DNA from: Candidatus Latescibacterota bacterium
GTDB lineage: Bacteria > Latescibacterota > UBA2968 > UBA8231
Reading direction: 5' to 3'
NCBI GenBank assembly: GCA_965221775.1
Contig: CBDCSU010000006.1
Coordinates: 1,312,001-1,376,000 of the forward strand
DNA length: 64,000 nt
Within the stretch, counting starts at the first letter, position 1. The number at the start of each line of letters is the position of its first letter. The position numbers and the translations under genes were made by a program. The notes below the pieces were generated by a model that saw only the letters and a list, made by a program, of their open reading frames with translations, was not told where the DNA came from and made no database searches. Of the stretch, positions 35,343 to 57,697 are shown piece by piece.

Positions 35343-37046
35343 ATGCCGATTCCGAAGGCCCCCGCCCGCCGCTTGTCCATCCCCTCCTCCACCCGGGTGC
35401 GCTTCCTCGCGCCCGCCCTCCTCGCCGCCCTCCTCGCCGGCTGCGGTCCCGACGAACTGGTCCTGGCCCGGGTCGGGGATTCCGAGATCACCGACTCCGG
35501 ACTGCAGAGGTTCGTCGACCGGTTGCCCGACCACCTGGTGAGCGACCAGCAGGGGGTCGCAGCCGACCGGGACCACCTGGAGAGCCTGGTCGACCAGGAG
35601 CTGCTGCTGCTGGAGGCCCGCAGCCGGGGGCTGGACACCACCTCGGCGCTGGCCCGGCAGATGGAGGACGCGGAGCGGGCCTGGCTCTCCCGGCGCTACC
35701 AGCGCCAGGTGATCGCCCCCAAGGTCGAGATCGGCCCCAAGGAGGTGGAGCGCGCCTTCCACGACATGGGCTTCGACCGCGAGCGGCTGCTGCAGCGCAT
35801 CGTCCTCAAGGGGAGCGAGGCCGAGGCCCGCGCCGTCTTCGAGCAGCTCGAGTCGCGAACCGACTACGACGAGCTGGCCAGGGAGTACGCCCCCAACGAC
35901 CCCAGCACCGACTCGACCGGAACCATCGGCTGGGTCGGCGTGCCCGGACTCAAGCGCCTGCGGGTGCCGCAGGGCGAGTTCCTCTCCCTGCCGGTGGGAA
36001 CGCCGGCCCTGCTCCCCCTCTCGCAGCTGGTGTGGCAGATCATCCGCTTCGCCGAAGACCGCGAGGCGCCGATCCAGCTCTACGCCGAGGACGTCCGCAA
36101 GCTCCTCTACATGGAACAGTGGTGGCGCCGCACGGAGGAGGAGATCGAGCTGCTCCGGCGGGACCAGGACGTGCGCCCCCACCCGGAGGGGGTGCGGGCC
36201 CTCATCGAGCGCACCGAAGCGCGCCAGCCGGAGCTGACCCCGGAGCAGGCCCGCCAGCCGCTGTTCACCTGGGCCGGCGGCGGCCCCATCACCGCCGCCG
36301 ACTTCGTCGACCGGGTCCGCAAGATGGCCAAGAGCTCGGCCCTGTCGGACAGCGCCCTCATCCTCTCCATCGCCGAGCGGGAGCTCCTCTACCCCCGTCT
36401 CTTCGCCTTCGCGGCGCGGCAACGAGGATGGCACCAGGACGAGGCCTTCGACGAGTGGCGGGCCCACACCCGCGACGGGCTCCTGGTGGACCACCTGATG
36501 CAGACCGAGGTGGAGGACCACCTGGTGTTCTCGGAGGAGGAGGTTCGGGGCTACTTCGAGGCGAACCGCGAGTTGTTCAGCGCCGGCGACAGGGCCCGCA
36601 TCGAGGAAGTGCACACGGAGGACGAGGACGAGGCCCGGGGGTGGCGCGGCGAGATCGAGGGGGGAGCAACCTTCGCCGAGATCCTCCGGCGTCCGGGCGC
36701 GGCCTCCCACGGCATCCACAGGAGGGGCGGGGAGATGGTCCTGCAGCGCCATCTCGCCGAGGGCTTTCCGGAGCTGGTGGAGGCCGCCTTCTCGGCGCCC
36801 GTGGGCGAGGTGCTGGGTCCTCTGTACCTGGAGAAGGTCGACAGCCATGCGATCCTGCGGGTCCTGGAGCGGGAGGGCAGCCGCCTCCTGACCTTCGAGG
36901 AGGCGAGCGCCGCCGTGGCGCAACACCTGCGCGCCAAGGAGCGGGACACCCGGGTCTCCGCCCTCTTCGAGTCCCTGCGGAGCAGATACGGGGATCGCAT
37001 ACAGGTCTTCGAGGACCGCCTGGAACAACGGCACGCAAAGGGGTAA
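35343..37046 (+). CDS. PpiC/SurA/PrsA-type peptidyl-prolyl isomerase lipoprotein (two SurA-N plus rotamase modules); start uncertain (35178-35397)
   Basis: Lipobox ALLAGC; LARVGDSEIT; LESLVDQELLLLEARSRGLD; YDELAREY..D...G.IGW; EEEVRGYFEAN; GATFAE; AAFSAPVGEV.GP; TFEEA. Confidence 0.85.
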   Translation: MPIPKAPARRLSIPSSTRVRFLAPALLAALLAGCGPDELVLARVGDSEITDSGLQRFVDRLPDHLVSDQQGVAADRDHLESLVDQELLLLEARSRGLDTTSALARQMEDAERAWLSRRYQRQVIAPKVEIGPKEVERAFHDMGFDRERLLQRIVLKGSEAEARAVFEQLESRTDYDELAREYAPNDPSTDSTGTIGWVGVPGLKRLRVPQGEFLSLPVGTPALLPLSQLVWQIIRFAEDREAPIQLYAEDVRKLLYMEQWWRRTEEEIELLRRDQDVRPHPEGVRALIERTEARQPELTPEQARQPLFTWAGGGPITAADFVDRVRKMAKSSALSDSALILSIAERELLYPRLFAFAARQRGWHQDEAFDEWRAHTRDGLLVDHLMQTEVEDHLVFSEEEVRGYFEANRELFSAGDRARIEEVHTEDEDEARGWRGEIEGGATFAEILRRPGAASHGIHRRGGEMVLQRHLAEGFPELVEAAFSAPVGEVLGPLYLEKVDSHAILRVLEREGSRLLTFEEASAAVAQHLRAKERDTRVSALFESLRSRYGDRIQVFEDRLEQRHAKG

Positions 37047-37057
37047 GGAGCCAGTCG

Positions 37058-39730
37058 ATGAACCTGCACGGCAATCCGGCAGCCGCTCTCGGTCTCCTGG
37101 GGCTGCTCGCCCTGGGCCTGCTGCCCGCCTCGGCGCAGCAGGACTACGGTGCGCGGCTGGGCCTCCGCCAGGGGGAGGAGTACAGCCTCGCTCCCCAGGG
37201 GCCGGGAGTGATGCTCAACGCCGTCGACCCGGCCATGCGCAAGTGGTACGTGCCCCAGGAGCTCTACCTGGACTACCGCTGGCGCCAGTGGGACTACACC
37301 AACTACGCCCGCGACCACTACCAGCGCTACATCGACACCACCCTCGAGGGCGAGCACTTCTACGACATCTACGGCAACTTCCTCACCCGGGGCTGGTTGA
37401 TCTACAACAACTCGCAGACCACGCCGGAACAGTTCGGGAACTCGCTGCTCAAGTCCAACCGCTTCCGGGACTGGTTCTCCGGCGTCGTGGTGACTCACGA
37501 CCAGAAGGGCCAGTACCACTTCTCCCTCACCGTGAGCAATCAGCTGCGCACGGTGCTGACGCCCATGGTGTTCTCCAAGCCGCGTTTCGACGGGCTGCAG
37601 TTCGACCTGGCCACCGACCGCGCCGAGGCTACCCTGCTCTATTCGCGCATCAGCAGCCCCGGCGGCAGCAGCACCCTCGACCGGGAGTTCCTGAGCACCA
37701 ACAACACCAGCCTCGTGGGCGGGCGGCTGGCCGCCCAGATCGGCGACTACCTCAAGCTCGGGGTCCACGGCGTCAACGCCCACCAGTCCAACACGCTGCG
37801 GGACAAGACCAGCTGGAACCCCTTCGCCGGCGAACTGACGGTGGCCCAGAACGAGGCGATCTCCTCCATCGAGATCGTCCTGCGCGACGACTCCCCCGGG
37901 GACGGGGAGGGCGGCGCCGCCTGGTTCCCCGCCGGGTCCGACATCTTCATCACCTACCAGGACGGTACGCAGGAGCGCGGCCGGGAGATCGGATTCCAGC
38001 CGGTGGTGGAGGGCGGCATCGTCCGCCAGGGCTTCATCGCCGCCGACGGCACCGAGGAGATCCGGCTGATCTACAACTTCGACAGCCCCGGATTCCTCGA
38101 CCGCGCGAAGTACACCAAGACCGAGATCGTCGAGGTCGAGTTCCAGCTGCAGATGGGCAACGACTACCAGGTCTGGATGACCTCCGACAGCCAGACCGAC
38201 TTCCACGGGCAGCCGGTGCTGCTCCTGGTGGCCCAGGCCGAGGGCAACGTCCGCGACATCACCAACCTGCGCACCCTGCGCTTCCACTACGGCCTGCCCA
38301 CGGCGACCCACGTGGCCGGCGGCAGCCTGGAGATCCGCGCCCCCTTCGGCCTCGACGTGTACGGCGAGTACGACCGCAGCTGGAGCTACCGCAAGTACCC
38401 CAACGCCGCCGAGGAGATCCACCACTCCAGCTCGGGGATCGAGGGCGCCGAGAGCGCGCCGGCGTGGATGCTGAACGTCTCCCGGAGGAAGGCCCCCTGG
38501 TTCCTCTTCGGCGAGGCCTACAGCATGGACCCGTTCTACAACACGCGATCCCTCCTGTGCACCCGGGTCGGGGAGATCTACTACGGCGACACCCGCCGGA
38601 GCGGGTACGAGCTGGTGGAGGACAACGACGACCACGACCGCATCCCCGACACGGTGCGCTCGGACTGGTTGAGGGGCGACACGGAGGTCTATCCCGGCTG
38701 GGACCAGAATAATGACTTCGTGCCCGACTTCAACCAGAACGACAACAGGGTCCGAACCAATGCCGTGCCCGACTACGAGGAGGCCTTCCTGCGCTTCGGC
38801 GTGGACCCGCCGGAGTTCCTCTTCGGCGTCGACATGAACCACAACTTCTGGGTCGACCAGTACGAGAACGACGAGGCTCCCGACTTCCCGTACCGCAAGG
38901 ACCACGAGGGGTTCAACATCTACGGCGGCGCCGAGGTCGCCCCGGGGATGAAGTTGATGGCGGGCGTGCTGCGCGAGGAGCTGATCTCCAGCGACCGCAG
39001 GAATCACAGCAACTACGCCCTGGCGACCATCGACTCGGACTCGCCCCGCTTCGGCCGCCTGCGCCTCTTCCTCATGACCCAGTGGGTCCAGGACGACATC
39101 CCCGACCCCCTGTTGCAGTGGGCTCCGGACAACTCCCTGCGCGGCGGCGAGCTCGTCCTCATCGAGGATCCCCTGCTTGGGCAGGACACCTGGATCAACC
39201 AGGTCTTCCTCGGCCACTCCCTGGAGTCGGGGCCGTGGCTGGTGGTCAACAAGGTGAACCACCTCCTCTACGACCAGCGCATGTCCGGCGAGCGCCGCCG
39301 GGAGCTCGGCCTGGCCGGCGAGGACTACTTCTTCGGCCTCATCGACAAGGTCAGCTACCGGCACCGGATCGGGCCTTTCCTCCTGGAGCCGCGGTGGAAG
39401 AGCGAGTACACCCGCCAGAGCCGCGGTCTCTTCGGCGCCGGACGGCGGTCGCGCCTCACCGAGATGGCGGGGATCATCGCCCAGACCCGGGTCCTGAGCT
39501 CCTCCAAGGTCCAGACCGGTGTCGAGTACCTGTACCTCAACGATCTCGACGACGACGAGCAGGACTTCGACGCCTTCACGGTGGCCGTGCAGTTCACCAC
39601 CGACTCCACCTACCTGGGCTACCGCCTGCGCTCGCTCCTGGGCGTCTCGGTCGAGCACCGCGCCTTCGAGGAGCGCGAGTCCCGGACCACCAACCAGTTC
39701 TTCGTCACCATCTACGCCGGTCTGGAGTAG
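37058..39730 (+). CDS. Large exported protein, putative outer-membrane beta-barrel (paralog A)
   Basis: AAGGAG RBS. Signal peptide ending ASA-QQ. Asp/Asn-rich loops, alternating beta-strand pattern in the C-terminal third, ends FFVTIYAGLE. Confidence 0.8.
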   Translation: MNLHGNPAAALGLLGLLALGLLPASAQQDYGARLGLRQGEEYSLAPQGPGVMLNAVDPAMRKWYVPQELYLDYRWRQWDYTNYARDHYQRYIDTTLEGEHFYDIYGNFLTRGWLIYNNSQTTPEQFGNSLLKSNRFRDWFSGVVVTHDQKGQYHFSLTVSNQLRTVLTPMVFSKPRFDGLQFDLATDRAEATLLYSRISSPGGSSTLDREFLSTNNTSLVGGRLAAQIGDYLKLGVHGVNAHQSNTLRDKTSWNPFAGELTVAQNEAISSIEIVLRDDSPGDGEGGAAWFPAGSDIFITYQDGTQERGREIGFQPVVEGGIVRQGFIAADGTEEIRLIYNFDSPGFLDRAKYTKTEIVEVEFQLQMGNDYQVWMTSDSQTDFHGQPVLLLVAQAEGNVRDITNLRTLRFHYGLPTATHVAGGSLEIRAPFGLDVYGEYDRSWSYRKYPNAAEEIHHSSSGIEGAESAPAWMLNVSRRKAPWFLFGEAYSMDPFYNTRSLLCTRVGEIYYGDTRRSGYELVEDNDDHDRIPDTVRSDWLRGDTEVYPGWDQNNDFVPDFNQNDNRVRTNAVPDYEEAFLRFGVDPPEFLFGVDMNHNFWVDQYENDEAPDFPYRKDHEGFNIYGGAEVAPGMKLMAGVLREELISSDRRNHSNYALATIDSDSPRFGRLRLFLMTQWVQDDIPDPLLQWAPDNSLRGGELVLIEDPLLGQDTWINQVFLGHSLESGPWLVVNKVNHLLYDQRMSGERRRELGLAGEDYFFGLIDKVSYRHRIGPFLLEPRWKSEYTRQSRGLFGAGRRSRLTEMAGIIAQTRVLSSSKVQTGVEYLYLNDLDDDEQDFDAFTVAVQFTTDSTYLGYRLRSLLGVSVEHRAFEERESRTTNQFFVTIYAGLE

Positions 39731-39732
39731 GG

Positions 39733-41718
39733 ATGAGCCTCGGGGAGAAGGGCCGGAGCGCCGCCGCGCAGGCGGCTGCCATCTTCGCCGCCGCCCTGGC
39801 GGCCCGGTGGATCTACGTCCACCAGTCGGGCAGCCACCCTGTGCGCGACGTCCCGCTGGGGTCCGCCATCGCCCACCTGGAGCGGAGCTCGGGCGAGGCG
39901 GCCGGTTTCGCCTCCCTCTACGACGCCTTTCTCGCCATCCTCCCCGGGGACCTCGACCTGGTTCGCGGAGTCCAGGTGGTCCTCGGAGCCGTCAACTGCG
40001 TCCTGCTCTGGTGGCTGGCCAGGTCCGTCCTCCCGCCGAGGGCGGCTCTCGGGGCCGGCCTGGCCCTCGCCTTCTTCGGACCGGCCATCTACTTCTCCGG
40101 CGAGATCCTGCCCCCGGTGCCGGCCACGTGCCTGGTGCTGCTCGCCCTGATCACCCTGTCGCGGGCCCTCGCCTCTTCCGGGAAGCGGCCGTTCTGGCTG
40201 CCGGGGCTGCTGCTGGGGCTCGCCGCCCTCGCCGAGTGGTGGATCTGCCTCTTCGCCCTCGCCCTGGCCCTCTGGCTGCTGCGGAGCCACCGTGGCGCGG
40301 CCCTGCCTCTGGCCTTGGGGACCGCCGCCGTCCTGCTGCCCGCTTGGCTGCTGTCGGCCTGGTCGCCGGAGGCGGCCCCGGGGCTGGTGGAGGGGGTCCG
40401 ACGGGTCCACGCCCTGTGGCAGGGAGGCGAGTTCCTCGGGGAGCTGGATCCCTACTTCGGGAGCCGCAACTCCAGCCTGCTGTCGGTGTTGATGTGGGAC
40501 GAGGGGCTGGCCTTCCCCTTCGGCGTGGCGGCGCCGCTGGCGCTGGTGGGCATCCTCTCGCGCCTGCGCGGCGGGCGAGAGCCGCTGGAGACCGCCCTGC
40601 TCCTCTTCGCCGGCTGCTTCACCGTGCAGGCCCTGCTCCTGCCGTCCGCCGACTCGGCGGTACGCGCCCCGGTGGTGCCGGTCCTGCTGATCTTCGCCGC
40701 CGCCGGGGTGACGGCCATGGCCGCCCTTCCGAGGCTACCGGCCCTGGCAGCGGCGGCCGCCTGCCTACTGCTGGCCGTCGGCCTCAACGCCGGCGATGCG
40801 GGCGCCGAGGGCCGGGCCCGGCAGCACTACTGGCTCGGCCATGGCTTCGGCCAACTCGGACTGCGCGCCAACGCCGTCCGCGAGTACGAGACGGCCCTGG
40901 CCCTCGACCCCGCGAGGCTGGAGACCTACCAGGCCCTGGCCGGGCACTACCGGGCCCAGCAGGATGACATCCGCGCCGCCGGCCTCTACGAGAGCCTGCT
41001 TGAGCGCTGGCCGGAGATGCACGGGGCCCGCATGGCCCTCGCCAAGGTCTACCTGACCTCGGGACGGGCCGCCGAGGCGGCCAGATGCTACCGGGATCTG
41101 ATCGCGGCGCAGGCTGGCCCCGCGGACTCGCTGCTGACCCTGCTGGGCGACGCCCTGTTCCGCAGCGGCGACCTGGAGGGGGGCCTGGGCGCCTATGAGC
41201 AGGCGTTGGCGGCGGACCCGGAAAACGCCCGGGCCCGCGGCATGCTGGCGCTGCTCTACTCGGCCGCCGACCGGCTGCCCGAGGCGGAGGAGGCCTGCCG
41301 CGCGCTCTACGAGGGGGGACTGGTGGCCGAGTACGGTCCCGTCCTGGCCGAGGTGCTGATCCGCCGCGGCCGGGACGAGGAGGCGGCGGAGGTGCTGGAG
41401 CATGTCCTGGAGACGGCGCCGGACTCGGGCGCAGCCCTCGGCTTGAGGGGCCGGCAGCTCCACGAGCAGGGCCGCCACCGGGAGGCCGCGGCCCTCTTCG
41501 AGCGCCTGCGCGCGGTCTGGCCCGAGGACCACCGGGTCCACTACTACCTCGCCCTGATCTACGAGCGCCTCGGCGACGAGGCCCGGGCCGAGGAGTCCCG
41601 CCTCGCCTACGTCCGCCATCAGAGGAACCGCGAGCGCGAGGATCTGCAGGGGCACCTGACGATGGTGACGAGCATGATGACCGACCAGCTCCAGTCCCGC
41701 CTGGGGGTGGGGCCGTGA
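39733..41718 (+). CDS. GT-C (PMT/GT39-like) multi-pass membrane protein with C-terminal TPRs, shortened
   Basis: About 11 TM helices, VRGVQVVLG, FFGPAIYFSGEILP, about eight TPR-like repeats. Paralog of 53865-55793. Confidence 0.8.
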   Translation: MSLGEKGRSAAAQAAAIFAAALAARWIYVHQSGSHPVRDVPLGSAIAHLERSSGEAAGFASLYDAFLAILPGDLDLVRGVQVVLGAVNCVLLWWLARSVLPPRAALGAGLALAFFGPAIYFSGEILPPVPATCLVLLALITLSRALASSGKRPFWLPGLLLGLAALAEWWICLFALALALWLLRSHRGAALPLALGTAAVLLPAWLLSAWSPEAAPGLVEGVRRVHALWQGGEFLGELDPYFGSRNSSLLSVLMWDEGLAFPFGVAAPLALVGILSRLRGGREPLETALLLFAGCFTVQALLLPSADSAVRAPVVPVLLIFAAAGVTAMAALPRLPALAAAAACLLLAVGLNAGDAGAEGRARQHYWLGHGFGQLGLRANAVREYETALALDPARLETYQALAGHYRAQQDDIRAAGLYESLLERWPEMHGARMALAKVYLTSGRAAEAARCYRDLIAAQAGPADSLLTLLGDALFRSGDLEGGLGAYEQALAADPENARARGMLALLYSAADRLPEAEEACRALYEGGLVAEYGPVLAEVLIRRGRDEEAAEVLEHVLETAPDSGAALGLRGRQLHEQGRHREAAALFERLRAVWPEDHRVHYYLALIYERLGDEARAEESRLAYVRHQRNREREDLQGHLTMVTSMMTDQLQSRLGVGP

Positions 41719-49673: not shown

Positions 49674-49689
49674 CGAGGGGCCTGTAACC

Positions 49690-51855
49690 ATGATCAACCG
49701 CATCGGATTCGCCGCCGCCGCCCTGCTGCTCTCCCTGGCCGGCACCCTCTGGGCACGGGCGGAGTTCCACCTGGGATCCGGAGCGAACGACTGGCAGCGC
49801 TTCGCCGTCCCCGAGGAGGAGGAACCCGCGGGAGCCTATGTGACGGTGGACTCGGCCGGGAACGTGCTCCAGGAGCACCCGGTGAGGTCCATCGAGGAGG
49901 AAGGGGGCGGGACCTTCCTCCTGGAATACAACTACCGAGGGCCTGATCTGCCCGACATGGAGGGTGGCATGCTCCGGGCGGAATGGATCGATCCCATGGT
50001 GAACCTCGCCCGGGACAGCGTCCTCTTCGCGCGGGGGGGCAACGTCTACCACGGCCACAACACCAGCCGATTCCCCACCGGGGACCTGCTGCTGCCCCTC
50101 GACGGAGACCCCACCACCGCGCGCCTGATCCTGCTCGAGGACAACCCCCTCCTGGCGGTGCCCCTGGTCCGCGGCGGGGTGTACCTGGGGGCCCAGTCCT
50201 CGGCGGTGATCCTCAATCTGGGCAAGCAGACACCCATCAACCGGGTCCGCGTCTACCCGCGGCTGGGCCGCCTCGACGACGCCGCCGCCATCGCCGCCAT
50301 GGCGGAGCCGAAGCCCGACCCCGAGTTGTTCGGGGAGACCAGTTTCGCCGACAACTACCTCGAGTGGTACGAGATCGCGGTGACCGACAACGACGCCCCC
50401 ATCAAGGAGTTTCCCGGCGGCGGCATGGGGGCCCGCCCGGGCCAGGGGCAGTTCAAGCGCTACTCCGAGACCACCGGGTACGTCGACTCGGCCGCCACCG
50501 ACCCGAACTTCGACGCCCTGATCCAGACCCGGGAGAACCTCGAGCCGGTGATCGATCTCCGGTTCCCCGTGCGCCACGAGCGCTTCGTCTCGGTGCGCCC
50601 CTATATCCCGGAGCGGACCTGGGAGATGGCGGAGATCGAGGTCTACGGCGAGGGCTACGTGCGCCGCTCCGTCTACCGCTCGCAGATCCTGGACTTCGGC
50701 CAGCCCGTCTCCTGGAGCAAGATCCGCTGGAGGTCGGAGCGCCCCCCGGGCACCGGGATCGAGGTGCGCACCCGCACCGGGAACACCCCGAGCCCCGACA
50801 TCTTCCTGCGGCGCGGCGTGAGCGGGCGGTACCAGCCCATCGACTGGCTCAGCTTTCAGCAGAAGCTGACCTCGGGAGAGGTCCGGCGCGTCACCGACGT
50901 GGAGAACTGGAGCTTCTGGTCGGCCACCTACGACTTTGCGTCGGGCGAGCGCGGCGACGGTCCCGCCGCCGCCTGGACCGACGGCACGCCGCTGCTCTCT
51001 CCCGGTCCGAGCCGCTATTTCCAGTTCGAGGTCGTGCTGCTGGCCGCCAGCGACCGAACCCCGGTACTCCACGATCTGTCCCTGCTGTTCTCCGAGGCGC
51101 CCGCGGCCTCCCAGGTGATCGCCGAGATCTGGCCCATCGAGGTGGACGGCTTCGAGCCCCATGCTTTCACCTACGTGGTCAAGCCCATCCTCCGCGACGG
51201 CAACCGCGGCTTCGACCGCCTGGAGATTCTCACCGGCGGGCCCGCCGTGGCGGTGACCTCGGTGCGCGTGGGCGGGGAGGAGGTCATGGACCGGTTTCCG
51301 CCCGAGGTCCTGGAGGACCGGATCCTCCTCTCCTTCGACCGGCTGGAGGACCCGGGGCGCGACAGCGAGAAGCGCATCGAGGTGGAGTTCAGGGCCCGCG
51401 TCCTGCGTTTCGGGGCCGAGTTCAGCGGCTGGGTCTACGACAGCCGCGAGCCGGACCTGAAGCAGAGCGTGACCCCCGGCAACGCCACGGTCCGCTTCGT
51501 CGGCGACGGGCTCTCGGTGCGCACCCCCACCGACGGCGGCCTGCTGCAGCGGCTCCACATCCGGCCCGCCGTCTTCACCCCCAACGGGGACGGCATCAAC
51601 GATGAGGCGATCCTCTCCTTCGACCTGCGGGACCTCACCGAGGCCCGCCCCGTGGAGGTCCGGATCCTGACCCTGGACGGCCGCCTGGTGCGGCGGCTGC
51701 AAGCCTCGATGGCCAGCGGCCACTTCGTCCACCGTTGGAACGGCCGCGACGATGCCGGCAGCCCGGCGCCGCCGGGGGTATACCTTGCCCAGGTCCGGCT
51801 GGAGAGCGACGAGGGGCGCAGGACGGCCACCCGCCTCCTCTCCCTGGCCTACTGA
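49690..51855 (+). CDS. Secreted discoidin-like / FlgD-Ig C-terminal domain protein (paralog 3)
   Basis: Signal peptide; LDGDPTT; LNLG..INRVRVYPR; AEIEVYGEG; RTRTG; WSFWS; AEIWP; FTPNGDGIND...WNGRDDAG..PPGVY; ends LSLAY. Confidence 0.85.
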   Translation: MINRIGFAAAALLLSLAGTLWARAEFHLGSGANDWQRFAVPEEEEPAGAYVTVDSAGNVLQEHPVRSIEEEGGGTFLLEYNYRGPDLPDMEGGMLRAEWIDPMVNLARDSVLFARGGNVYHGHNTSRFPTGDLLLPLDGDPTTARLILLEDNPLLAVPLVRGGVYLGAQSSAVILNLGKQTPINRVRVYPRLGRLDDAAAIAAMAEPKPDPELFGETSFADNYLEWYEIAVTDNDAPIKEFPGGGMGARPGQGQFKRYSETTGYVDSAATDPNFDALIQTRENLEPVIDLRFPVRHERFVSVRPYIPERTWEMAEIEVYGEGYVRRSVYRSQILDFGQPVSWSKIRWRSERPPGTGIEVRTRTGNTPSPDIFLRRGVSGRYQPIDWLSFQQKLTSGEVRRVTDVENWSFWSATYDFASGERGDGPAAAWTDGTPLLSPGPSRYFQFEVVLLAASDRTPVLHDLSLLFSEAPAASQVIAEIWPIEVDGFEPHAFTYVVKPILRDGNRGFDRLEILTGGPAVAVTSVRVGGEEVMDRFPPEVLEDRILLSFDRLEDPGRDSEKRIEVEFRARVLRFGAEFSGWVYDSREPDLKQSVTPGNATVRFVGDGLSVRTPTDGGLLQRLHIRPAVFTPNGDGINDEAILSFDLRDLTEARPVEVRILTLDGRLVRRLQASMASGHFVHRWNGRDDAGSPAPPGVYLAQVRLESDEGRRTATRLLSLAY

Positions 51856-51892
51856 GCCCCCCGGGGCCGGCCACGGAAGAGCCACTATTTTC

Positions 51893-51921
51893 TTGTATGG
51901 TGACCCGGGATTGGTTACCTT
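51893..51921 (+). promoter_or_regulatory. Putative sigma70-type promoter for the gene at 52009
   Basis: TTGTAT-17 bp-TACCTT in an AT-richer intergenic patch. Confidence 0.5.
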
Positions 51922-52008
51922 GGATCGCTATCCGGTTCACGAACCTCCGGCGCCGCGGAGCGCCAGCTTCAGATTCCTTCCCCATCTCCCATGCAAGGAG
52001 AGAGAACC

Positions 52009-52935
52009 ATGTTCAGATGCGCGCAGATGATCGTCGTCGGCGTTCTCGCCGTTTCCACGGCGGTCTTCGCCCACATCCCCGAGGATGAGGTTCGGAACAC
52101 GGTGCAGTTCCCGGCCGGCGCCGAGCCCACCATCGACGGTGACTGCTCCGATTGGGACGCGGTCCCCGCCGATCAGTACTGGCTCACCAACGCCGATCTC
52201 TATCCCTTCAACGACTGGCAGCCCGAAGGGACTCAGAAGGGCGACGCCGATCCCAGTTCCTTCGATGCCACCATCCGGGTCGGCTGGAGCGCCAGCACGG
52301 GGCAGATCTACTACTGCAACTCGATCTTCGATGACGTCCATGTCATCGACCGCCCCGATTCCTACGACTGGTACAACGACGACTGCAGCGAGTACTTCTT
52401 CACCACCCGCCACCTCTCCGAGCAGGAAGTGAGAGACCTGGCCGGCGAGAACGTCAACACCTACTGGGGCTTCAACTATGCCCTGCCGCGGCTGCCCGAT
52501 CCCGACGCCTTCTGGATGGTCATCGGCATCTGCATCGGCTGCGACTGGCTCGACAGCGGCGACAACGAGTTCTACACCCTGGTGCACAGCTTTGATGGTG
52601 AGGAGTTCGGCGAGAGCACCTACCATTACGAGCACCGAGTGGCCCCCATCGACTCGTGGGTCGGCGGTCTCGACGCTGAGGACAAGTCTCCAGACATGAT
52701 CACCACCACCACCCTCAGCGAGGGTCAGACGATCCACATCACCTTCTTCAACACCGACGACGACGCCAACCTGCCTGACAACGCCCAGGGAGGCCCCGCG
52801 TGGTCCACCAGGCCAGGCGGCTCGGGAACATGGCTGGGACAGGGCGACTTCTTCCTGGAGCCCGTCAACCCCTCCATCAACTTCCCGACGGCTGTCGAAT
52901 CGAAGAGCTGGGGCAGGATCAAGGCTCAGTTCTGA
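52009..52935 (+). CDS. Secreted CBM9/DOMON-like acidic protein with a C-terminal TAVESKSWGRIKAQF tag
   Basis: AAGGAG RBS; signal peptide AVFA-H; PTIDGDCSDW, VGWS...IY, DD, W.DDCSE, YEHRV; terminal SWGRIK motif. Confidence 0.8.
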   Translation: MFRCAQMIVVGVLAVSTAVFAHIPEDEVRNTVQFPAGAEPTIDGDCSDWDAVPADQYWLTNADLYPFNDWQPEGTQKGDADPSSFDATIRVGWSASTGQIYYCNSIFDDVHVIDRPDSYDWYNDDCSEYFFTTRHLSEQEVRDLAGENVNTYWGFNYALPRLPDPDAFWMVIGICIGCDWLDSGDNEFYTLVHSFDGEEFGESTYHYEHRVAPIDSWVGGLDAEDKSPDMITTTTLSEGQTIHITFFNTDDDANLPDNAQGGPAWSTRPGGSGTWLGQGDFFLEPVNPSINFPTAVESKSWGRIKAQF

Positions 52936-52968
52936 GGCTTCGCAGTTCAGAAGTCTCCCTTTAACTCG

Positions 52969-53007
52969 CGCTGGGCAGGTCTGACGACCTGTCCAGCGTT
53001 TTTTTTT
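52969..53007 (+). terminator. Rho-independent terminator
   Basis: Stem cgctgggcaggtc / loop tgac / gacctgtccagcg, followed by a T9 tract. Confidence 0.92.
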
Positions 53008-53518: not shown

Positions 53519-53795
53519 CGATGCGCTGGCGGTAGCGCCGGGCGGCCCTCCTCAGGGCCGCGTTCGGGGCGGGGGGGTTGAGCAGAGCGTCGTGGAAGGC
53601 GTCCCAGTCCGTCTCAGGGAGCACGATCCGCTCGCGCTCCTCGATCACCCGCTCCGCCGCCGCCACGGCGTTGCTCAGCACGAAGCGGCTGACCGTGGTT
53701 TCCTCGTAAGACGCCGCCCGTTCGAGCTTGCGCTTGCTCTTGGGGTCGAGGCGCAAATGCACCCGTTCGTGCTTCGTTTCGGCGATCTTGGCCAT
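53511..53795 (-). CDS. tacA: DUF1778 RHH antitoxin (TacA/AtaR type)
   Basis: ERVHLRL..K..LERAA....VSRFVL..A..AAERVI...I.L...DWDAF..AL.NPPAPN.ALRRA. Overlaps the toxin start. Confidence 0.93.
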   Translation of the reverse strand: MAKIAETKHERVHLRLDPKSKRKLERAASYEETTVSRFVLSNAVAAAERVIEERERIVLPETDWDAFHDALLNPPAPNAALRRAARRYRQRIGG

Positions 53796-53829
53796 CAGGG
53801 GGGTCTCCAGTGTGAGATTCCGATGGAAA

Positions 53830-53850
53830 CATGCGCCAATATGGCGTACA
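53830..53850. promoter_or_regulatory. Palindromic operator upstream of tacAT
   Basis: TGCGCCA-ATA-TGGCGTA inverted repeat about 35 bp upstream of the tacA start. Confidence 0.65.
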
Positions 53851-53864
53851 CTGCAAGAGTGACC

Positions 53865-55793
53865 ATGGAACGCCGGCACTGGATCAGCCTGAGCCTGCTG
53901 GCCCTGGTAGCACTTGCCGTGCGGGTGATCTACCTGCTCCAGGCGGACGACAGTCCCCTGTTCTACCACCCCATCGTCGATGCCCGCACCTATGTGCGCA
54001 CGGCTCTGCACCTGGCCGAGGGGCAGTGGCTGGGTCCGCCCCAGCCGTTCTGGCAGCCGCCCCTGTATCCCTACTTTCTCGCCGGGTCTTTCGCCCTCTT
54101 CGGAGAGAGCTACCACCTGCCCCGGCTCGTGCAGGCCCTCTCCGGGACGGCGGTCTGCCTGCTGGTCTTCCACCTGGGACGCCGCGCCTTCTCTCCCGCC
54201 GCTGGCTGGATCGCCACCGGCGCCGCCGCCCTCTACGGCCCCTTCCTCTACTTCGAGGGCGAGTTGCTGCCCGCCGCCCTGGCCGTCTTCCTCAACGCCC
54301 TGGCACTGGCCGCCCTGCTGTGGGCCGGCGGGGGCCGTTCCACTTGGCGCTGGCTGGCCGCGGGTCTGCTCCTGGGCCTGGCCGCCCTGAACGTGCCCAG
54401 CGTGCTCCTCTTCATACCCCTTGCTCTCGCCTGGGCCCGGCTCCGGGCGCGGGCGTCCCTGCCCGCCCTCGGTGCCCTTGTCCTGGGCGTCATCCTGGCC
54501 GTCTCGCCGGTCACCCTTCGCAACCGCATCGTCGGCGGCGAGTGGGTGCCGATCTCCTACAACGCCGGGATCAACTTCTACATCGGCAACAACCCCGACT
54601 CCGGGCGCACCACGAGAATCCGCCCCGGCCGCGACTGGCAGGAGCTGACGGCCATGCCGGAGCGGGAAGCCGGGATCACCGAAAAGGGAGCCTCCTCGAG
54701 ATACTTCTTCGGGCGCTCGCTGGAGTACCTCGCAGGTGATCCCGGGGGCTATCTGCTCCTGCAGCTGCGCAAGCTCCACCAATTCTGGCGCGGCGACGAG
54801 ATCCCCCGGAACCTGGACCCCTACTTCGCCCGGAGCGGATCCTGGCTGCTGCAGGGACTGCTGTGGATACGGGGGCTGGCCTTCCCCTTCGGCCTGGTGG
54901 GGCCACTCGCCCTGACCGGGCTGGTCCTGTATCTGCGGAGTCCCCCGGCGCGGTCGCCGGCGGGGGACCTGCTGCTGCTCTTCGCCGCGGCCTACATGCT
55001 GGCCGTGGTCCTGTTCTTCGTCACCGGACGCTACCGGCTGCCGATGATCCCCTCACTGCTGCTCTTCGCAGGGTACGGGGTGACGCGGCTGTCCCAGCTG
55101 CGGGGGCGGCGGCTGGCCCTGGGGCTCGCCCTGCCGGCCGTCCTGGGGCTCGCCCTCAACACCGGGGTCCCGGCCATGGAGATGGAGGGAGGCAGCCAGG
55201 AGCACCTCTACCTGGCGTCGGCCTACGCCGAGCAGGGCCTGCAGGCCAACGCGCTCCGCCATTACGACGAGGCCCTGAAGCGCGAGCCGGACCACGAGAT
55301 CGCCCTCCACGACGCCGGCGCCCTGCTCGCCCGGCGCGGCGACGTCCGCCGGGCGGCGGAGACCTGGGAGCGCCTGCTGCATCACTACCCCGACCGCTCC
55401 GACGTCCGCTTCCGGTTGGCCGCCATGAGCCAGGACACGGGCGATCATGCCGCGGCGATCCCGCATCTGGAGCGGCTGGCCGCCGATGAGCCGGGGCGCG
55501 CCGTCTTCCACGCGCGGCTGGCCTGGTCCCGCCGCGAGGTCGGCGATCTGGAGGGGGCCGCCCGCGCCTACCGCCGCGCCCTGGAGCTGGATCCCGCGGC
55601 GCTGTCCCTGCACCGGCAACTGGCGCGGCTGGAGATCCGCCGCGGCAACGCGGACGCGGCCATGCCCCACGTGCGGGCCCTGGAACGCCACGCCGGCGAG
55701 GACCCCGCCGCCCGGCGGGAGGTGGAGGAACTCCACCGGCTTCTGGCCACGGCGGCCGGACCGCCGGCGGCCTCCGGGACGGGGCGTCCGTGA
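53865..55793 (+). CDS. GT-C (PMT/GT39-like) glycosyltransferase with C-terminal TPRs
   Basis: PIVDARTY, PFWQPPLYPYFLA, RLVQAL, YGPFLYFEGELL, PVTLRN, SYNAGINFYIGNNP, EIPRNLDPYF, FFVTGRYRLP, followed by TPRs. Confidence 0.88.
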   Translation: MERRHWISLSLLALVALAVRVIYLLQADDSPLFYHPIVDARTYVRTALHLAEGQWLGPPQPFWQPPLYPYFLAGSFALFGESYHLPRLVQALSGTAVCLLVFHLGRRAFSPAAGWIATGAAALYGPFLYFEGELLPAALAVFLNALALAALLWAGGGRSTWRWLAAGLLLGLAALNVPSVLLFIPLALAWARLRARASLPALGALVLGVILAVSPVTLRNRIVGGEWVPISYNAGINFYIGNNPDSGRTTRIRPGRDWQELTAMPEREAGITEKGASSRYFFGRSLEYLAGDPGGYLLLQLRKLHQFWRGDEIPRNLDPYFARSGSWLLQGLLWIRGLAFPFGLVGPLALTGLVLYLRSPPARSPAGDLLLLFAAAYMLAVVLFFVTGRYRLPMIPSLLLFAGYGVTRLSQLRGRRLALGLALPAVLGLALNTGVPAMEMEGGSQEHLYLASAYAEQGLQANALRHYDEALKREPDHEIALHDAGALLARRGDVRRAAETWERLLHHYPDRSDVRFRLAAMSQDTGDHAAAIPHLERLAADEPGRAVFHARLAWSRREVGDLEGAARAYRRALELDPAALSLHRQLARLEIRRGNADAAMPHVRALERHAGEDPAARREVEELHRLLATAAGPPAASGTGRP

Positions 55794-57697
55794 GCTCCCT
55801 GCGGGCCACGTACAGGGCCCTCTTTCTGGGCGCCCTCGGGTGCCTGCTGGTGGGGGCGGGCTCCCAGTACACGGACATGATGCTCAAGCGCTCCGGCTTC
55901 ACCGGCTGGTACTACACGCCCGGCGCGCTGATCATCCTCTTCACGATCATCCTCGTCTTCAACCCCCTCACCGGCCTCATGCGCCGGCGGTGGATGCTGT
56001 CACCCGCCGAGCTGGCGCAGATGTACGTCATGTGGATCGTCGGCTCGGCGGTGGCCACCTGCGGCATCGTCTCGTACCTGCTGCCCATACTGACGTCCGC
56101 CGTCTACTACGCCAGCCCGGAGAACAACTGGGGCTACGAGTTGCTGCCCCTGATCCCGGACTGGGCGATCCCCACCAAGGAGTTCGGCGAGATCAAGGAC
56201 TTCTACGAGGGCGCCCCCGGGGGAGGCGTGCCCTGGGGGCTGTGGCTGCCGCCCCTGCTCCACTGGCTGCCGCTGGCCCTCTCCCTGCACCTGGCCATGA
56301 TCGCCATCATGGTCATCCTGCGAAGGCAATGGGTCCACCACGAGCGCCTGATCTTCCCCATGACCCAGCTGCCGATCTCCATGATCGACGACGGCGACTC
56401 CCCGGGGCTGATCAAGCCGCTCTTCAAGAGCTGGCTGTTCTGGCTCGGTTTCGCCATCCCCTTCCTCATCCAGTGCTACAACGGCATAAACCGCCACTTC
56501 TGGTTCCTGCCCATCATCCCCATCGGCGGCTACTACCTCCACTTCTTCGAAGACCAGCTGCGCCTGCGCATCGGCATCAACTTCATGATGATCGGCTTCA
56601 CCTACCTGGTGCGGCGCGAGGTCTCCCTCGGCTTCTGGGTCTTCGCCATCCTCAACTTCGCCCAGGAAGCGCTGATGATCACCCTGGGGGTGGAGCGTAT
56701 CGATCCCCTCTTCAGCCCCTGGTCGCGGGGCGGCACCATCGCCTCCCACCAGGGGTTCGGCGCCTTCCTGGTCCTCGCCCTCTTCAGCCTGTGGAACGGC
56801 CGCCGCCACATCCGCAGGGTCTTCGCCCATGCCTTCGGCCGGGGCCCGCGGATGGACGACGGCGACGAGATTCTCTCCTACCGGGGGGCGGTGCTGCTGC
56901 TGTTGGGTTGCCTCGGCTTCATGTGCTTCTGGCTGTGGCAGGCGGGGATGCCGGCGTGGATCACGGTGGTCTTCCTCTTCCTGGCCTTCATCCTCTTCCT
57001 CGGCATCACCCGCATCATCTCCGAGGGAGGACTGCCCTACTTGGTGACGCCCATGGTGGCCTCCGACGTGGTCATCGGGGGGATCGGCACCCGGGCCCTG
57101 GGGCTGACCGGCATCGCCGCCCTCTCCCTAACCTACATGTGGGCCAGCGACATCATCACCTTCGTCATGGTCTCCTGCTCCAACGGGCTCAAGATCGTCG
57201 AGGAGCACGTGAAGAAGGGACGGCGGCTGATCTTCCCCAGCATGGTGGTGGCCCTCGTCGTCTCCATGGGCGGCTCCGCCTGGGTGATGCTGAGCATCGC
57301 CTACGAGCACGGCGGGCTGAACACCTCCCACTACTTCCTCGAGCAGACCCAGTATCCGTGGCAGGACGCGCTGGCGCGGGTGCGCTCCTCGGTGGGGCCG
57401 AAGTGGGAGTACTGGGGCTACATGACCATCGGCGGCAGCATCATGGCCGGACTCATGCTTCTGCGCCAGCAGCTCGTCTGGTGGCCCCTGCACCCCATCG
57501 GTTTCCCCATCAGCCTGGTGATCCACAAGATGTTCTTCACCGTGCTGTTGGCCTGGCTGCTGAAGACGATCATCCTCAACTACGGCGGCCCCCGCCTGTT
57601 CACGCGGATGCGGCCCTTCTTCCTGGGGCTGATCCTCGGCGACTTCCTGCCCCTGGGGGTTCTGCTGCTCCTCGACCAGATCGCCTTACGCCTGTAG
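55790..57697 (+). CDS. DUF6785/DUF6784-type polytopic membrane protein (putative OPT-like transporter)
   Basis: GTGA overlap with the upstream gene. About 16 TM helices; YYASPENNW, FYEG, PW..W..PL, RRQWVHHERLIFP, DE.LSYR, RIISEGG, WWPLHPIGF, YGG.RL...PFFLGLILG. Confidence 0.82.
   Translation: MSSLRATYRALFLGALGCLLVGAGSQYTDMMLKRSGFTGWYYTPGALIILFTIILVFNPLTGLMRRRWMLSPAELAQMYVMWIVGSAVATCGIVSYLLPILTSAVYYASPENNWGYELLPLIPDWAIPTKEFGEIKDFYEGAPGGGVPWGLWLPPLLHWLPLALSLHLAMIAIMVILRRQWVHHERLIFPMTQLPISMIDDGDSPGLIKPLFKSWLFWLGFAIPFLIQCYNGINRHFWFLPIIPIGGYYLHFFEDQLRLRIGINFMMIGFTYLVRREVSLGFWVFAILNFAQEALMITLGVERIDPLFSPWSRGGTIASHQGFGAFLVLALFSLWNGRRHIRRVFAHAFGRGPRMDDGDEILSYRGAVLLLLGCLGFMCFWLWQAGMPAWITVVFLFLAFILFLGITRIISEGGLPYLVTPMVASDVVIGGIGTRALGLTGIAALSLTYMWASDIITFVMVSCSNGLKIVEEHVKKGRRLIFPSMVVALVVSMGGSAWVMLSIAYEHGGLNTSHYFLEQTQYPWQDALARVRSSVGPKWEYWGYMTIGGSIMAGLMLLRQQLVWWPLHPIGFPISLVIHKMFFTVLLAWLLKTIILNYGGPRLFTRMRPFFLGLILGDFLPLGVLLLLDQIALRL

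What the first reader, a model, noticed from the sequence alone, without database searches (positions are those of the whole stretch)
35343..57697. Candidate undescribed cell-envelope system: chaperone, paired outer-membrane proteins, three '-AY' FlgD-tailed proteins, GT-C/TPR pair and DUF6785-type transporter
Seen: seven co-oriented genes from 35343 to 51855 have overlaps or gaps of 16 bp or less (11, 2, -4, 10, -1, 16). Their order is PpiC lipoprotein, OM-like A, GT-C/TPR, FlgD-1, OM-like B, FlgD-2, FlgD-3. A CBM9-like SWGRIK protein follows, then (after a TA module) a second GT-C/TPR gene coupled to a polytopic transporter. Every product is exported or membrane-bound. I recognise no TonB-dependent receptor, SusD, secretin, Omp85, T9SS core gene or ATPase. 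Known: SurA/PrsA chaperones fold exported proteins, GT-C/TPR enzymes (TMTC/PMT-like) glycosylate proteins outside the cytoplasm, and C-terminal Ig-like domains act as sorting signals in FCB bacteria. Inference: this is either a dedicated export and surface-assembly pathway for glycosylated surface proteins, or a SusCD-independent capture-and-import apparatus analogous to a PUL.
Basis: partly seen in the sequence, partly recalled or inferred. Interest (0 to 1): 0.9.

Follow-up and report, generated by a model that had tools for sequence, protein, structure and literature searches.

The report
Repeated surface-lectin cassette with new barrel
This is one of about ten copies in the genome of a conserved gene cassette that pairs lectin-like surface proteins, which carry a type IX secretion tail, with large outer-membrane barrels of an undescribed family.

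Summary
They form an eight-gene unit, 35343-52935, closed by a terminator-like hairpin.

The cassette is conserved:
- About 11 paralogous loci occur in this genome.
- In 46 related loci with full flanks, 40 hold the five core parts.
- The OM-like family was found in 94 of 151 sampled genomes of the phylum.

The '-AY FlgD tails' are type IX secretion (T9SS) type-B-like C-terminal domains:
- Pfam CHU_C matches 73 of 73 tails.
- The modelled tail has the PorU/PorZ C-terminal-domain fold.
- The genome has SprA, PorU and a PorV-like gene but no PorP/SprF.

The tails track the barrels. In this genome 27 of 28 tailed genes lie within 7 kb of an OM-like gene. Across genomes, all 83 tail-positive genomes are barrel-positive. 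The 51 genomes of three SprA-positive families (f2-f4) had neither.

The barrels (about 24-26 strands) match no Pfam or NCBIfam family. Flg3 has a CBM32-like module.

Best reading: T9SS type-B-like lectin cargo held on new cognate barrels, a PUL-like surface module. Binding and function are inferred. The 'TA module' was not confirmed, and the second GT-C/DUF6785 pair is a separate accessory unit.

The parts
35343..37046 (+). PpiC/SurA-like peptidyl-prolyl isomerase lipoprotein (cassette chaperone)
   Evidence: Pfam Rotamase_2 at 40.9 bits (cut-off 27) and weak SurA_N_3. Weak match to the EpsD-family PPIase model. The lipobox LLAGC is visible in the translation. Relatives lie in 42 of 46 full-flank cassettes, and all 7 tblastn hits in this genome fall inside the cassette-containing clusters.
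37058..39730 (+). OM-like A: large outer-membrane beta-barrel of an undescribed family
39733..41718 (+). GT-C (PMT_2) glycosyltransferase with C-terminal TPR domain, core cassette member
   Evidence: PMT_2 at 31.6 bits (cut-off 26.1) plus many TPR families. Only the TPR part matches solved structures. A GT-C/TPR gene follows the barrel in 42 of 46 full-flank loci.
41715..43796 (+). Flg1: F13-class surface protein with type-B-like T9SS C-terminal domain (CTD 43479-43793)
   Evidence: CHU_C 22.9 bits and FlgD_ig 19.1 bits on the whole protein. Scores 149 bits on the tail HMM. Ends -VAY and carries an NGDG motif. Aligns with Flg3 over 552 residues at 27% identity.
43807..46551 (+). OM-like B: paralogue of OM-like A
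   Evidence: 52% identity over 898 aligned positions. No Pfam or NCBIfam match.
46551..49673 (+). Flg2: F2-class 1040-aa surface protein with a weak F5/8 type C match and a type-B-like T9SS CTD (49356-49670)
   Evidence: F5_F8_type_C E 6.4e-6, FlgD_ig 27.4 bits, CHU_C 22.8 bits. A PDB profile search matches only the tail. An F2-class gene is present in 46 of 46 full-flank loci.
49690..51855 (+). Flg3: F13-class protein with a CBM32-like module, Ig-like sandwiches and a type-B-like T9SS CTD (51538-51852)
51991..52935 (+). CBM9-like secreted protein with a conserved C-terminal ...SWGRIKAQF motif
   Evidence: No Pfam match for the window protein; 9 of 38 relatives match CBM9_1 weakly. W307, K311 and nearby residues at the C-terminus are conserved. 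Present in 35 of 46 full-flank loci. Contigs from RNA libraries cover the whole gene.
52968..52999 (+). Terminator-like hairpin followed by a T run: 3' end of the cassette unit
   Evidence: 14-pair stem with 9 G-C pairs, followed by TTTTTTTT.
53865..55793 (+). Second GT-C (PMT_2)/TPR gene: accessory, separate unit
   Evidence: PMT_2 at 36.6 bits. 39-43% identical to the GT-C genes of five other cassette-containing clusters in this genome. Lies beyond the terminator-like site and a convergent GNAT gene.
55790..57697 (+). DUF6785+DUF6784 polytopic membrane protein: accessory neighbour, overlaps the GT-C stop by 4 bp
   Evidence: DUF6785 at 381 bits and DUF6784 at 87 bits. 21 tblastn hits in the genome, about 8 of them in cassette clusters. 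Present in 20 of 46 full-flank loci. The nearest named Atlas clusters are peptide/OPT transporters at 0.78-0.80, which is only a lead.

Best explanation
The region holds one copy of a modular surface cassette found in this phylum (records titled Candidatus Latescibacterota).

Proposed mechanism:
1. Three Sec-exported multi-domain proteins (Flg1-3) carry lectin-like (CBM32/F5-8C-type) and Ig-like domains and end in a type-B-like T9SS sorting domain (FTPNGDGxND motif, last residues -AY).
2. They are folded in the periplasm, helped by the cassette's PpiC/SurA-like lipoprotein. They may be glycosylated by the cassette's GT-C/TPR enzyme.
3. They cross the outer membrane through the genome's single SprA translocon.
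4. They are then received and held at the cell surface by the cassette's own large barrels (OM-like A and B).

The barrels belong to a new family. They occupy the genomic and, I infer, the functional place that PorP/SprF carriers hold for type-B cargo in Bacteroidota. The many paralogous cassettes would give the cell a set of surface binding modules of differing specificity, analogous to PULs.

Shown: the cassette and its conservation, the nature and fold of the tails, the presence of T9SS genes, and the strict linkage and co-occurrence of tail and barrel.

Inferred: export through SprA, physical tail-barrel binding, glycosylation of the cargo, and the ligand.
For: - Conservation. About 11 paralogous loci in this genome. 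The core five parts are present in 40 of 46 full-flank loci from related genomes.
- T9SS is present. SprA is over its cut-off. There are two PorU genes over the cut-off, one of them next to a PorV-like gene. There are 68 type-A CTD matches, none in Flg1-3.
- No PorP/SprF. The best match is 20 bits against a cut-off of 90.55.
- Linkage in this genome. 28 ORFs score at least 74 bits on the tail HMM, and 27 of them lie within 7 kb of an OM-like gene. Only 3 of the 63 lower-scoring (type-A-like) ORFs do.
- Co-occurrence across genomes. The tail was found in 83 of 151 genomes, all of them among the 94 barrel-positive genomes. In families f2, f3 and f4, 0 of 30, 0 of 19 and 0 of 2 genomes have either, although all of them have SprA.
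- Published precedent. Type-B substrates have dedicated carriers encoded next to them, to which they stay bound (PMC9143113 abstract; PMC12618676 abstract; PMC12635249 introduction passage).
- Contigs from RNA libraries of two studies cover parts of five of the eight genes and all of the CBM9-like gene.
Against: - The barrels show no sequence likeness to PorP/SprF. At 890-914 residues and about 24-26 strands they look more like conduits (usher, LptD, MtrB, SlpA) than small carriers.
- GldL and GldM models found nothing in this genome, and GldK gave only sub-threshold FGE-type hits. The GldL and GldM controls rang nowhere, so that result is inconclusive.
- The window's own whole proteins score below the CHU_C and TIGR04131 cut-offs (22.8-23.6 bits against 27; 17.5 bits against 35).
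- One 96%-complete genome (G015) has barrel and tail matches but no SprA match.
- Genes that duplicate as a block stay linked whether or not their products touch. Linkage alone therefore does not show binding.
- No carbohydrate-active enzyme was seen in the cassette itself.
Confidence: 0.5

Rival explanations
1. SusCD-independent uptake machine. The barrels are substrate import channels (SusC analogues). The Flg and CBM9-like proteins are surface glycan-binding proteins. DUF6785 is the inner-membrane importer. T9SS is used only to deliver the binding proteins. This overlaps the best explanation, since the barrel could be both anchor and channel.
For: - The Flg3 model has a CBM32-like module. 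Flg2 has a weak F5/8 type C match. There are weak CBM9_1 matches.
- DUF6785 lies beside 20 of 46 full-flank cassettes. Its nearest named Atlas clusters are peptide/OPT transporters (0.78-0.80).
- A sugar-type TIM barrel and a Gfo/Idh/MocA gene lie downstream in the window.
Against: - No glycoside hydrolase in the cassette.
- DUF6785 mostly lies elsewhere: about 13 of 21 copies are outside cassette clusters.
- Flanking catabolic genes do not recur near cassettes (Gfo 3 of 31).
- A GT-C/TPR enzyme and a PPIase are not expected parts of an uptake locus.
Confidence: 0.2
2. Self-contained secretion or assembly system. The 24-26-strand barrels are themselves the translocons or ushers for the tail-bearing proteins, independent of SprA. 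The PpiC lipoprotein acts as the periplasmic chaperone.
For: - The tail occurs only where the barrel occurs, whereas SprA also occurs without either.
- G015 has barrel and tail matches but no SprA match.
- A dedicated chaperone gene sits first in the unit.
Against: - The tail is a recognisable T9SS CTD by sequence and fold.
- 90 of 94 barrel-positive genomes have SprA. Three of the four exceptions are 64-80% complete.
- No Usher, POTRA or PapD-like domain was found.
- The fold matches are generic for large barrels (TM about 0.2).
Confidence: 0.12
3. Structural surface coat, adhesion or motility apparatus. The barrels are envelope anchors like the Deinococcus SlpA S-layer base. The tail-bearing proteins form a coat or act as gliding-type adhesins like SprB. 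The paralogues provide variation.
For: - Known type-B cargo includes the SprB adhesin bound to SprF (PMC9143113 abstract).
Against: - An S-layer usually needs one or a few genes, not about 11 cassettes that each have their own chaperone and glycosyltransferase.
- The SlpA match aligns 405 of 890 residues at rmsd 6.8.
- No GldL or GldM match and only sub-threshold GldK-type hits. This is inconclusive.
Confidence: 0.1

Closest known systems
T9SS type-B cargo with cognate PorP/SprF-like carrier (Bacteroidota; e.g. SprB-SprF, PG1035-PorP)
   Same: The cargo ends in a CHU_C/TIGR04131-type CTD with a PorU/PorZ-like Ig fold. The cargo genes sit next to genes for outer-membrane barrels (27 of 28; 71 of 72 loci). 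Many cargo/barrel sets occur per genome. A T9SS translocon is present.
   Different: The partner barrel is about three times the size I recall for PorP/SprF, and it has no match to TIGR03519. No conserved cysteine appears among the invariant or nearly invariant columns of the barrel alignment, unlike the Cys-bearing SprF tail (PMC12635249, figure 1 legend). The cassette has fixed extra parts: a PpiC lipoprotein, GT-C/TPR and a CBM9-like protein. It lies in a phylum for which my three literature searches found no T9SS paper. GldL and GldM were not detected (inconclusive).
Polysaccharide utilisation loci (SusC/SusD with SusE/F-like surface glycan-binding proteins)
   Different: No TonB-dependent receptor domains, no SusD, no lipoprotein-type binding proteins and no glycoside hydrolases in the cassette. 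The binding proteins carry T9SS tails instead of lipid anchors.
Large outer-membrane conduit barrels (FimD/PapC ushers, LptD, MtrB, Deinococcus SlpA)
   Different: 7-12% sequence identity and no family-level sequence match. There is a distinctive invariant Asp/Asn-rich segment (residues 520-612) and a conserved N-terminal ~90-residue region that AF2 does not fold.
GT-C/TPR protein O-glycosyltransferases (PMT/TMTC type)
   Same: A PMT_2 membrane domain over its cut-off plus a TPR domain on the non-cytoplasmic side. This fits periplasmic glycosylation of exported proteins (recalled knowledge of PMT and TMTC).
   Different: No solved relative for the membrane domain at E <= 0.01. Donor and acceptor are unknown. 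The gene is fixed inside a T9SS cargo cassette.

Membership tests
T9SS type-B CTD cargo (Pfam CHU_C PF13585 / NCBIfam TIGR04131) | C-terminal domain matching the type-B sorting-domain models | tested here: met
   Tails scanned alone: CHU_C 73 of 73 at E <= 0.01 (best 1.2e-14). The window's Flg3 tail gives 27.6 bits against a cut-off of 27. TIGR04131 matches 66 of 73. Most homologues carry precomputed PF13585. Caveat: the whole window proteins score 22.8-23.6 bits (CHU_C) and at most 17.5 bits (TIGR04131), below the cut-offs.
T9SS type-B CTD cargo (Pfam CHU_C PF13585 / NCBIfam TIGR04131) | Ig-like beta-sandwich CTD fold as in solved T9SS CTDs | tested here: met
T9SS type-B CTD cargo (Pfam CHU_C PF13585 / NCBIfam TIGR04131) | T9SS translocon and attachment genes in the same genome | tested here: met
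   SprA at 286, 204 and 116 bits in one 2192-aa frame, over the cut-off. Two PorU genes at 580 and 542 bits, over the cut-off. A PorV-like gene at 148 bits is below the 250 cut-off. GldL and GldM: no match, with silent controls. GldK: only sub-cut-off hits.
T9SS type-B CTD cargo (Pfam CHU_C PF13585 / NCBIfam TIGR04131) | Adjacent gene for a PorP/SprF-family carrier | tested here: not met
   No TIGR03519 match over the cut-off anywhere in the genome; the best is 20.2 bits, in the PorV-like ORF. The adjacent barrels are of another family.
T9SS type-B CTD cargo (Pfam CHU_C PF13585 / NCBIfam TIGR04131) | Secretion depends on the T9SS | not testable with these tools
   Needs genetics or heterologous secretion assays.
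PorP/SprF carrier family (for OM-like A and B) | Sequence match to TIGR03519 | tested here: not met
   No NCBIfam match for either barrel. The genome-wide search gave only 20.2 bits, elsewhere.
PorP/SprF carrier family (for OM-like A and B) | Encoded beside type-B CTD genes | tested here: met
   27 of 28 tail genes lie within 7 kb of an OM-like gene. 71 of 72 related loci have a tail gene beside the barrel.
PorP/SprF carrier family (for OM-like A and B) | Binds its cargo's CTD | not testable with these tools
   Needs co-purification, cross-linking or a structure.
TonB-dependent transporter / SusC | Plug and TonB_dep_Rec domains | tested here: not met
   No Pfam or NCBIfam families for OM-like A, OM-like B or seven distant paralogues.
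TonB-dependent transporter / SusC | 22-strand barrel with an N-terminal plug fold | tested here: inconclusive
Chaperone-usher pathway | Usher domains, a PapD-like chaperone and pilin subunits | tested here: not met
   Only the barrel fold resembles FimD/PapC. No Usher, PapD or fimbrial Pfam match in the ten products.
GT-C glycosyltransferase, PMT_2 type, with TPR | PMT_2 domain over the gathering score plus TPR repeats | tested here: met
   31.6 and 36.6 bits against 26.1, with multiple TPR families over their cut-offs.
   The GNAT domains are present. The only minus-strand ORF upstream (53614-53883) has third-position GC of 0.45, against about 0.9 in genes here. Its product was not scanned against Pfam.

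The most novel reading that the evidence does not exclude
The barrels are a new class of outer-membrane dock-and-channel proteins. Each cassette would build a SusCD-independent, T9SS-assembled capture-and-import machine. Lectin cargo stays bound by its type-B-like tail to a 24-26-strand barrel. The barrel's invariant acidic calcium-type loop and conserved N-terminal region gate substrate passage. OPT-like DUF6785 proteins complete import across the inner membrane. This would be a second, independent invention of the PUL principle in the FCB group.
Probability: 0.22. Interest if true: 0.88.

Novelty: new variant of a known kind. Interest (0 to 1): 0.72.

Why it matters
T9SS biology rests almost wholly on Bacteroidota. 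This cassette suggests a variant in another, uncultured phylum that several runs place in sponge and marine samples. There, a distinct large-barrel family, not PorP/SprF, is tied one-to-one with type-B-like cargo, and the set has multiplied into about ten or more cassettes per genome.

If the barrels are the carriers, the carrier role is not bound to one protein family. That gives a natural comparison for how the tail is recognised.

If the barrels also conduct substrates, this would be a PUL-like nutrient-capture system without SusC/SusD. That bears on how these bacteria feed on glycans or glycoproteins.

The work also defines a large barrel family that has no Pfam or NCBIfam model: 679 clusters passed E <= 1e-3 among the candidates scored, and 544 stretches were confirmed in species-representative genomes. 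It gives testable roles to a GT-C/TPR enzyme, a SurA-like lipoprotein and two DUF families.

Tried and rejected
- Complex prediction of OM-like A (residues 23-890) with the Flg2 tail (residues 936-1040) returned 'no answer' (score 0.00, controls not run). I do not count it either way.
- Sequence searches of solved structures matched only the tails of Flg2 and Flg3, singly or as profiles. They found nothing for the CBM9-like protein or DUF6785, and only the TPR part of GT-C.
- The Atlas search for OM-like A gave only unnamed clusters. The nearest named one was DUF6029 at 0.89, a lead I did not pursue.
- PorP/SprF, SusC/TBDT and usher membership were considered for the barrels and rejected on the tests listed under Membership tests.
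- GldL and GldM searches found nothing, but the controls were silent, so absence of a T9SS motor cannot be claimed.
- A first literature search (Latescibacterota, outer membrane, FlgD) returned only unrelated papers.
- Searches found 0 papers for DUF6785, 0 for Latescibacter* with T9SS and 0 for Latescibacter* with 'type IX'. None of the 12 papers listed mentions Latescibacter*. My statement that the cassette is undescribed rests on these searches of open-access text only.
- I could not compare the five type-B motifs of PMC12618676. Its figure 5A and supplementary figures are not held, and supplements are closed.
- Recurrence of flanking genes was tested as a control and rejected as part of the system: amidohydrolase 1 of 6, NHL 1 of 4, the unknown 758-aa protein 2 of 9, Gfo 3 of 31.
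- RNA run X18 gave only 25-54-base pieces and is not used. Stretches of the cassette without RNA-library contigs are not interpreted.
- I did not build a mirror-tree or co-evolution test, because cassettes that duplicate as blocks give congruent trees without any binding.

Full report
**Observation**

ORF listing and translation place seven co-oriented genes at 35343-37046, 37058-39730, 39733-41718, 41715-43796, 43807-46551, 46551-49673 and 49690-51855.

The Pfam and NCBIfam scans give:
- A PpiC/SurA-like protein (Rotamase_2, 40.9 bits) with a lipobox.
- Two products of about 900 aa with no match at all. They are 52% identical to each other.
- A PMT_2 (31.6 bits) plus TPR protein.
- Three proteins with weak FlgD_ig and CHU_C matches at the C-terminus, all ending -AY.

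A 314-aa secreted protein without a Pfam match follows at 51991-52935. Only 9 of 38 of its relatives touch CBM9_1 (best E 9e-4).

A terminator-like hairpin sits at 52968-52999: a 14-pair stem followed by T8.

Next comes a convergent GNAT gene (53009-53518, minus strand). I found no antitoxin-like ORF beside it, so the 'TA module' is not confirmed.

A second PMT_2/TPR gene (53865-55793) overlaps by 4 bp a DUF6785+DUF6784 gene (55790-57697). A second DUF6785 gene, a xylose-isomerase-like TIM barrel and a Gfo/Idh/MocA gene follow. The first 23 kb of the window holds ordinary metabolic genes.

**The set is a conserved, multi-copy cassette**

I ran tblastn with the ten products against the window's own genome (5.36 Mb, 6 contigs, 96.8% complete). 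It finds about 11 clusters. Each combines OM-like genes (20 ORFs in all: 12 close, 8 distant) with Flg1/3-class and usually Flg2-class genes. Several clusters also hold PpiC-like (7 hits), GT-C/TPR and CBM9-like (8 hits) genes.

A scan of species-representative genomes confirmed 544 stretches that encode relatives of the barrel. I examined the 72 loci that were kept.
- The usual order is (DUF6785) PpiC, F2, OM, GT-C/TPR, F13, F13, OM, CBM9-like.
- The window's order (PpiC, OM, GT-C, F13, OM, F2, F13, CBM9-like) is shared, as far as their flanks reach (to F2), by L013 (99% identical) and L015.

Among the 46 loci with full 10-kb flanks:

| Part | Loci with it (of 46) |
|---|---|
| F2 class | 46 |
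| PpiC | 42 |
| F13 class | 42 |
| GT-C/TPR | 42 |
| CBM9-like | 35 |
| A second barrel | 21 |
| DUF6785 | 20 |
| All five core parts together | 40 |

As a control, the window's other flanking genes do not recur near cassettes in this genome, for example Gfo 3 of 31 and the unknown 758-aa protein 2 of 9.

**What the tails are**

An HMM built from the last 105 residues of Flg1-3 was searched against all six-frame ORFs of the genome. It splits the hits cleanly.
- 28 ORFs score at least 74 bits. All end in -Y or -W, mostly -AY or -VY, and 24 of the 28 carry an NGDG motif. Where printed (Flg2, Flg3 and the tail consensus) the motif reads FTPNGDGxND.
- 63 ORFs score at most 50 bits. Most end -LLK or -LLR. 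These are the type-A tails.

A broader profile of 73 tails (A5) gives the same 28.

Scanned alone, the 73 tails match as follows:

| Model | Tails matched (of 73) |
|---|---|
| Pfam CHU_C (type-B T9SS signal) | 73 (best E 1.2e-14) |
| FlgD_ig | 71 |
| Pfam Por_Secre_tail (type A) | 1 |
| NCBIfam TIGR04131 (type B) | 66 |
| NCBIfam TIGR04183 (type A) | 53 |

In the 72 related loci, 177 of 178 F-class genes end in Y, and 148 of 178 have NGDG in the last 120 residues.

The AF2 model of Flg3 (pLDDT 82.9) has three parts:
- Ig- or FN3-like sandwiches in between.

Most database homologues carry precomputed PF13585. Two NCBI records call them 'gliding motility-associated C-terminal domain-containing protein'.

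**The T9SS context**

The genome encodes:
- SprA, over its cut-off.
- Two PorU genes over the cut-off, one next to a PorV-like gene (148 bits, below the cut-off).
- 68 type-A tail matches, none in Flg1-3.

It has no PorP/SprF match (best 20 bits).

GldL and GldM models found nothing, but their controls were silent. GldK gave only FGE-type sub-threshold hits. The motor is therefore unresolved.

**Tail and barrel go together, not tail and T9SS**

In this genome, 27 of the 28 tail genes lie within 7 kb of an OM-like gene. Only 3 of the 63 lower-scoring ORFs do.

In a sample of 151 genomes of the phylum:

| Feature | Genomes with it (of 151) | Family f1 (without G000) | f2 | f3 | f4 |
|---|---|---|---|---|---|
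| Barrel | 94 | 63 of 63 | 0 of 30 | 0 of 19 | 0 of 2 |
| Tail (E <= 1e-21) | 83 | 63 of 63 | 0 of 30 | 0 of 19 | 0 of 2 |
| SprA | 146 | 63 of 63 | 30 of 30 | 19 of 19 | 2 of 2 |

- All 83 tail-positive genomes are barrel-positive.
- Eleven barrel-positive genomes (families f7 and f10, with only distant barrel matches) lack a tail at that cut-off.
- Four barrel-positive genomes lack a SprA match. One of them is 96% complete.
- These genomes are related to one another, so the counts are descriptive, not statistical.

Three loci titled 'Gemmatimonadetes' lie in genomes whose SprA matches sit at the same contig coordinates as handles in the window's own family. The Gemmatimonadota labels seen therefore look like naming differences. 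The Woeseia- and Bryobacterales-labelled hits are short contigs in genomes without a SprA match.

**The barrels**

The AF2 model of OM-like A (90-row alignment, pLDDT 73.7, pTM 0.73) shows:
- A barrel that I count at about 24-26 strands from the DSSP string.
- A beta-sandwich inserted at about residues 250-400.
- A long Asp/Asn-rich region at about 500-612.
- A conserved N-terminal stretch (about 25-115) that is not folded confidently.

From strand parity I infer that both inserts face outward and the N-terminal region faces the periplasm or the lumen. This is inference only.

In the alignment, 36 of 113 invariant columns fall in residues 520-612. This is a calcium-site-like acidic segment and the most conserved part of the protein.

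No Pfam model matches the close or the distant paralogues.

**Mechanism proposed**

In Bacteroidota, type-B cargo is encoded next to PorP/SprF-like carriers, needs them for secretion and stays bound to them at the surface. My sources are the abstract of PMC9143113, the abstract and section 10 of PMC12618676, and an introduction passage of PMC12635249.

Here the same kind of tail is tied, by position and by phyletic pattern, to a different and much larger barrel, and PorP/SprF is not found. I therefore read the barrels as the cognate carriers or anchors of the cassette's lectin-like cargo.
- The PpiC lipoprotein would fold cargo or barrel.
- The GT-C/TPR enzyme would glycosylate an exported cassette protein.
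- SprA would be the export route.

The multiplicity and the CBM-type modules suggest PUL-like capture of glycans or particles. Whether the barrel also conducts substrate, and whether DUF6785 (nearest named Atlas clusters are peptide/OPT transporters at 0.78-0.80) completes import, remains open.

Three rivals are kept with lower weight: a pure uptake channel, a self-contained usher-like translocon, and a surface coat or adhesin system.

**Expression**

Ten DNA runs labelled sponge metagenome, from three studies, hold 68-83% of the sampled words.

Contigs from RNA libraries of two studies give this cover:
- Study P6 (runs X15, X17), at 99% identity or more: parts of PpiC, OM-like A, OM-like B and Flg2, and the whole CBM9-like gene.
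- Study P7 (run X16), at 95-99% identity: parts of PpiC, OM-like A and OM-like B, and the OM-A/GT-C junction (39428-39936).

The CBM9-like contigs have k-mer depths of 180-206 (X15) and 105 (X17), against 3-19 for the other pieces listed. The tool warns that contig depth cannot rank genes and that DNA can be present in RNA libraries, so this is a weak hint only. It fits a separate start in the 135-bp gap before that gene.

**Comparison and novelty**

The tails are members, or near-members, of the type-B CTD family. The barrels fail the PorP/SprF, TBDT and usher membership tests. The system is best filed as a new variant of the T9SS type-B cargo/carrier principle, with a new barrel family and a fixed accessory set.

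I found no paper on it in the open-access library. A review passage lists other FCB phyla with possible T9SSs but not this one (PMC11285876, introduction passage).

Noticed in passing
window 58623-60683 (-), 57722-58831 (-), 60527-61798 (+): A second DUF6785+DUF6784 gene (409 bits) lies beside a xylose-isomerase-like TIM barrel gene and a Gfo/Idh/MocA oxidoreductase gene. The genome has 21 tblastn hits for DUF6785, often in tandem pairs. The nearest named Atlas clusters are peptide/OPT transporters at 0.78-0.80. No paper in the library mentions DUF6785.
   Followed up: partly
window 51991-52935 (+): The CBM9-like protein family ends in a conserved ...SWGRIKAQ[FY] motif with alternating hydrophobic residues, like an outer-membrane beta-signal. 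Its RNA-library contigs have k-mer depths of 105-206, against 3-19 for neighbouring genes. I speculate it could donate a strand to the barrel.
   Followed up: partly
G000:C6:6819-19841 (L085), G000:C5:358547-374621 (L086), G000:C3:5260-11825: There are divergent cassettes. In L085 and L086 three OM-like genes (~25% identical to OM-like A) stand in tandem, preceded by one -AY tail protein and one protein with a -TLLK tail. The C3 cluster has the same two tail proteins before one OM-like ORF, and the 12.7-kb contig ends there. The -TLLK tails score between the two tail classes (55-71 bits on the A5 profile). They may link type-A and -AY tails.
   Followed up: partly
G000:C6:2592830-2593570 (+): A 331-aa ORF with sub-threshold GldK/FGE-sulfatase-type matches lies directly after the last gene of the cassette at C6:2574764-2592753.
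   Followed up: no
window 53009-53518 (-): A lone GNAT acetyltransferase is convergent with the cassette. No antitoxin-like ORF lies beside it.
   Followed up: yes
L016, L024, L042 (records titled Gemmatimonadetes): The SprA matches of these genomes sit at the same contig coordinates as handles G094, G138 and G081, which the tool places in the window's own family. The Gemmatimonadota labels for this protein family therefore look like naming differences, not a second phylum.
   Followed up: partly
window 31782-34058 (-) and 26738-29611 (-): A 758-aa product with no Pfam match has 9 tblastn hits in the genome. A 957-aa product combines an MFS-like membrane region with a spermine/spermidine synthase domain.
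   Followed up: no
window 18001-20000 and 22001-28000: G+C content falls to 0.60-0.65, against about 0.70 elsewhere. ORFs there lack the strong third-position GC bias. This may be foreign or non-coding DNA.
   Followed up: no
   Followed up: no
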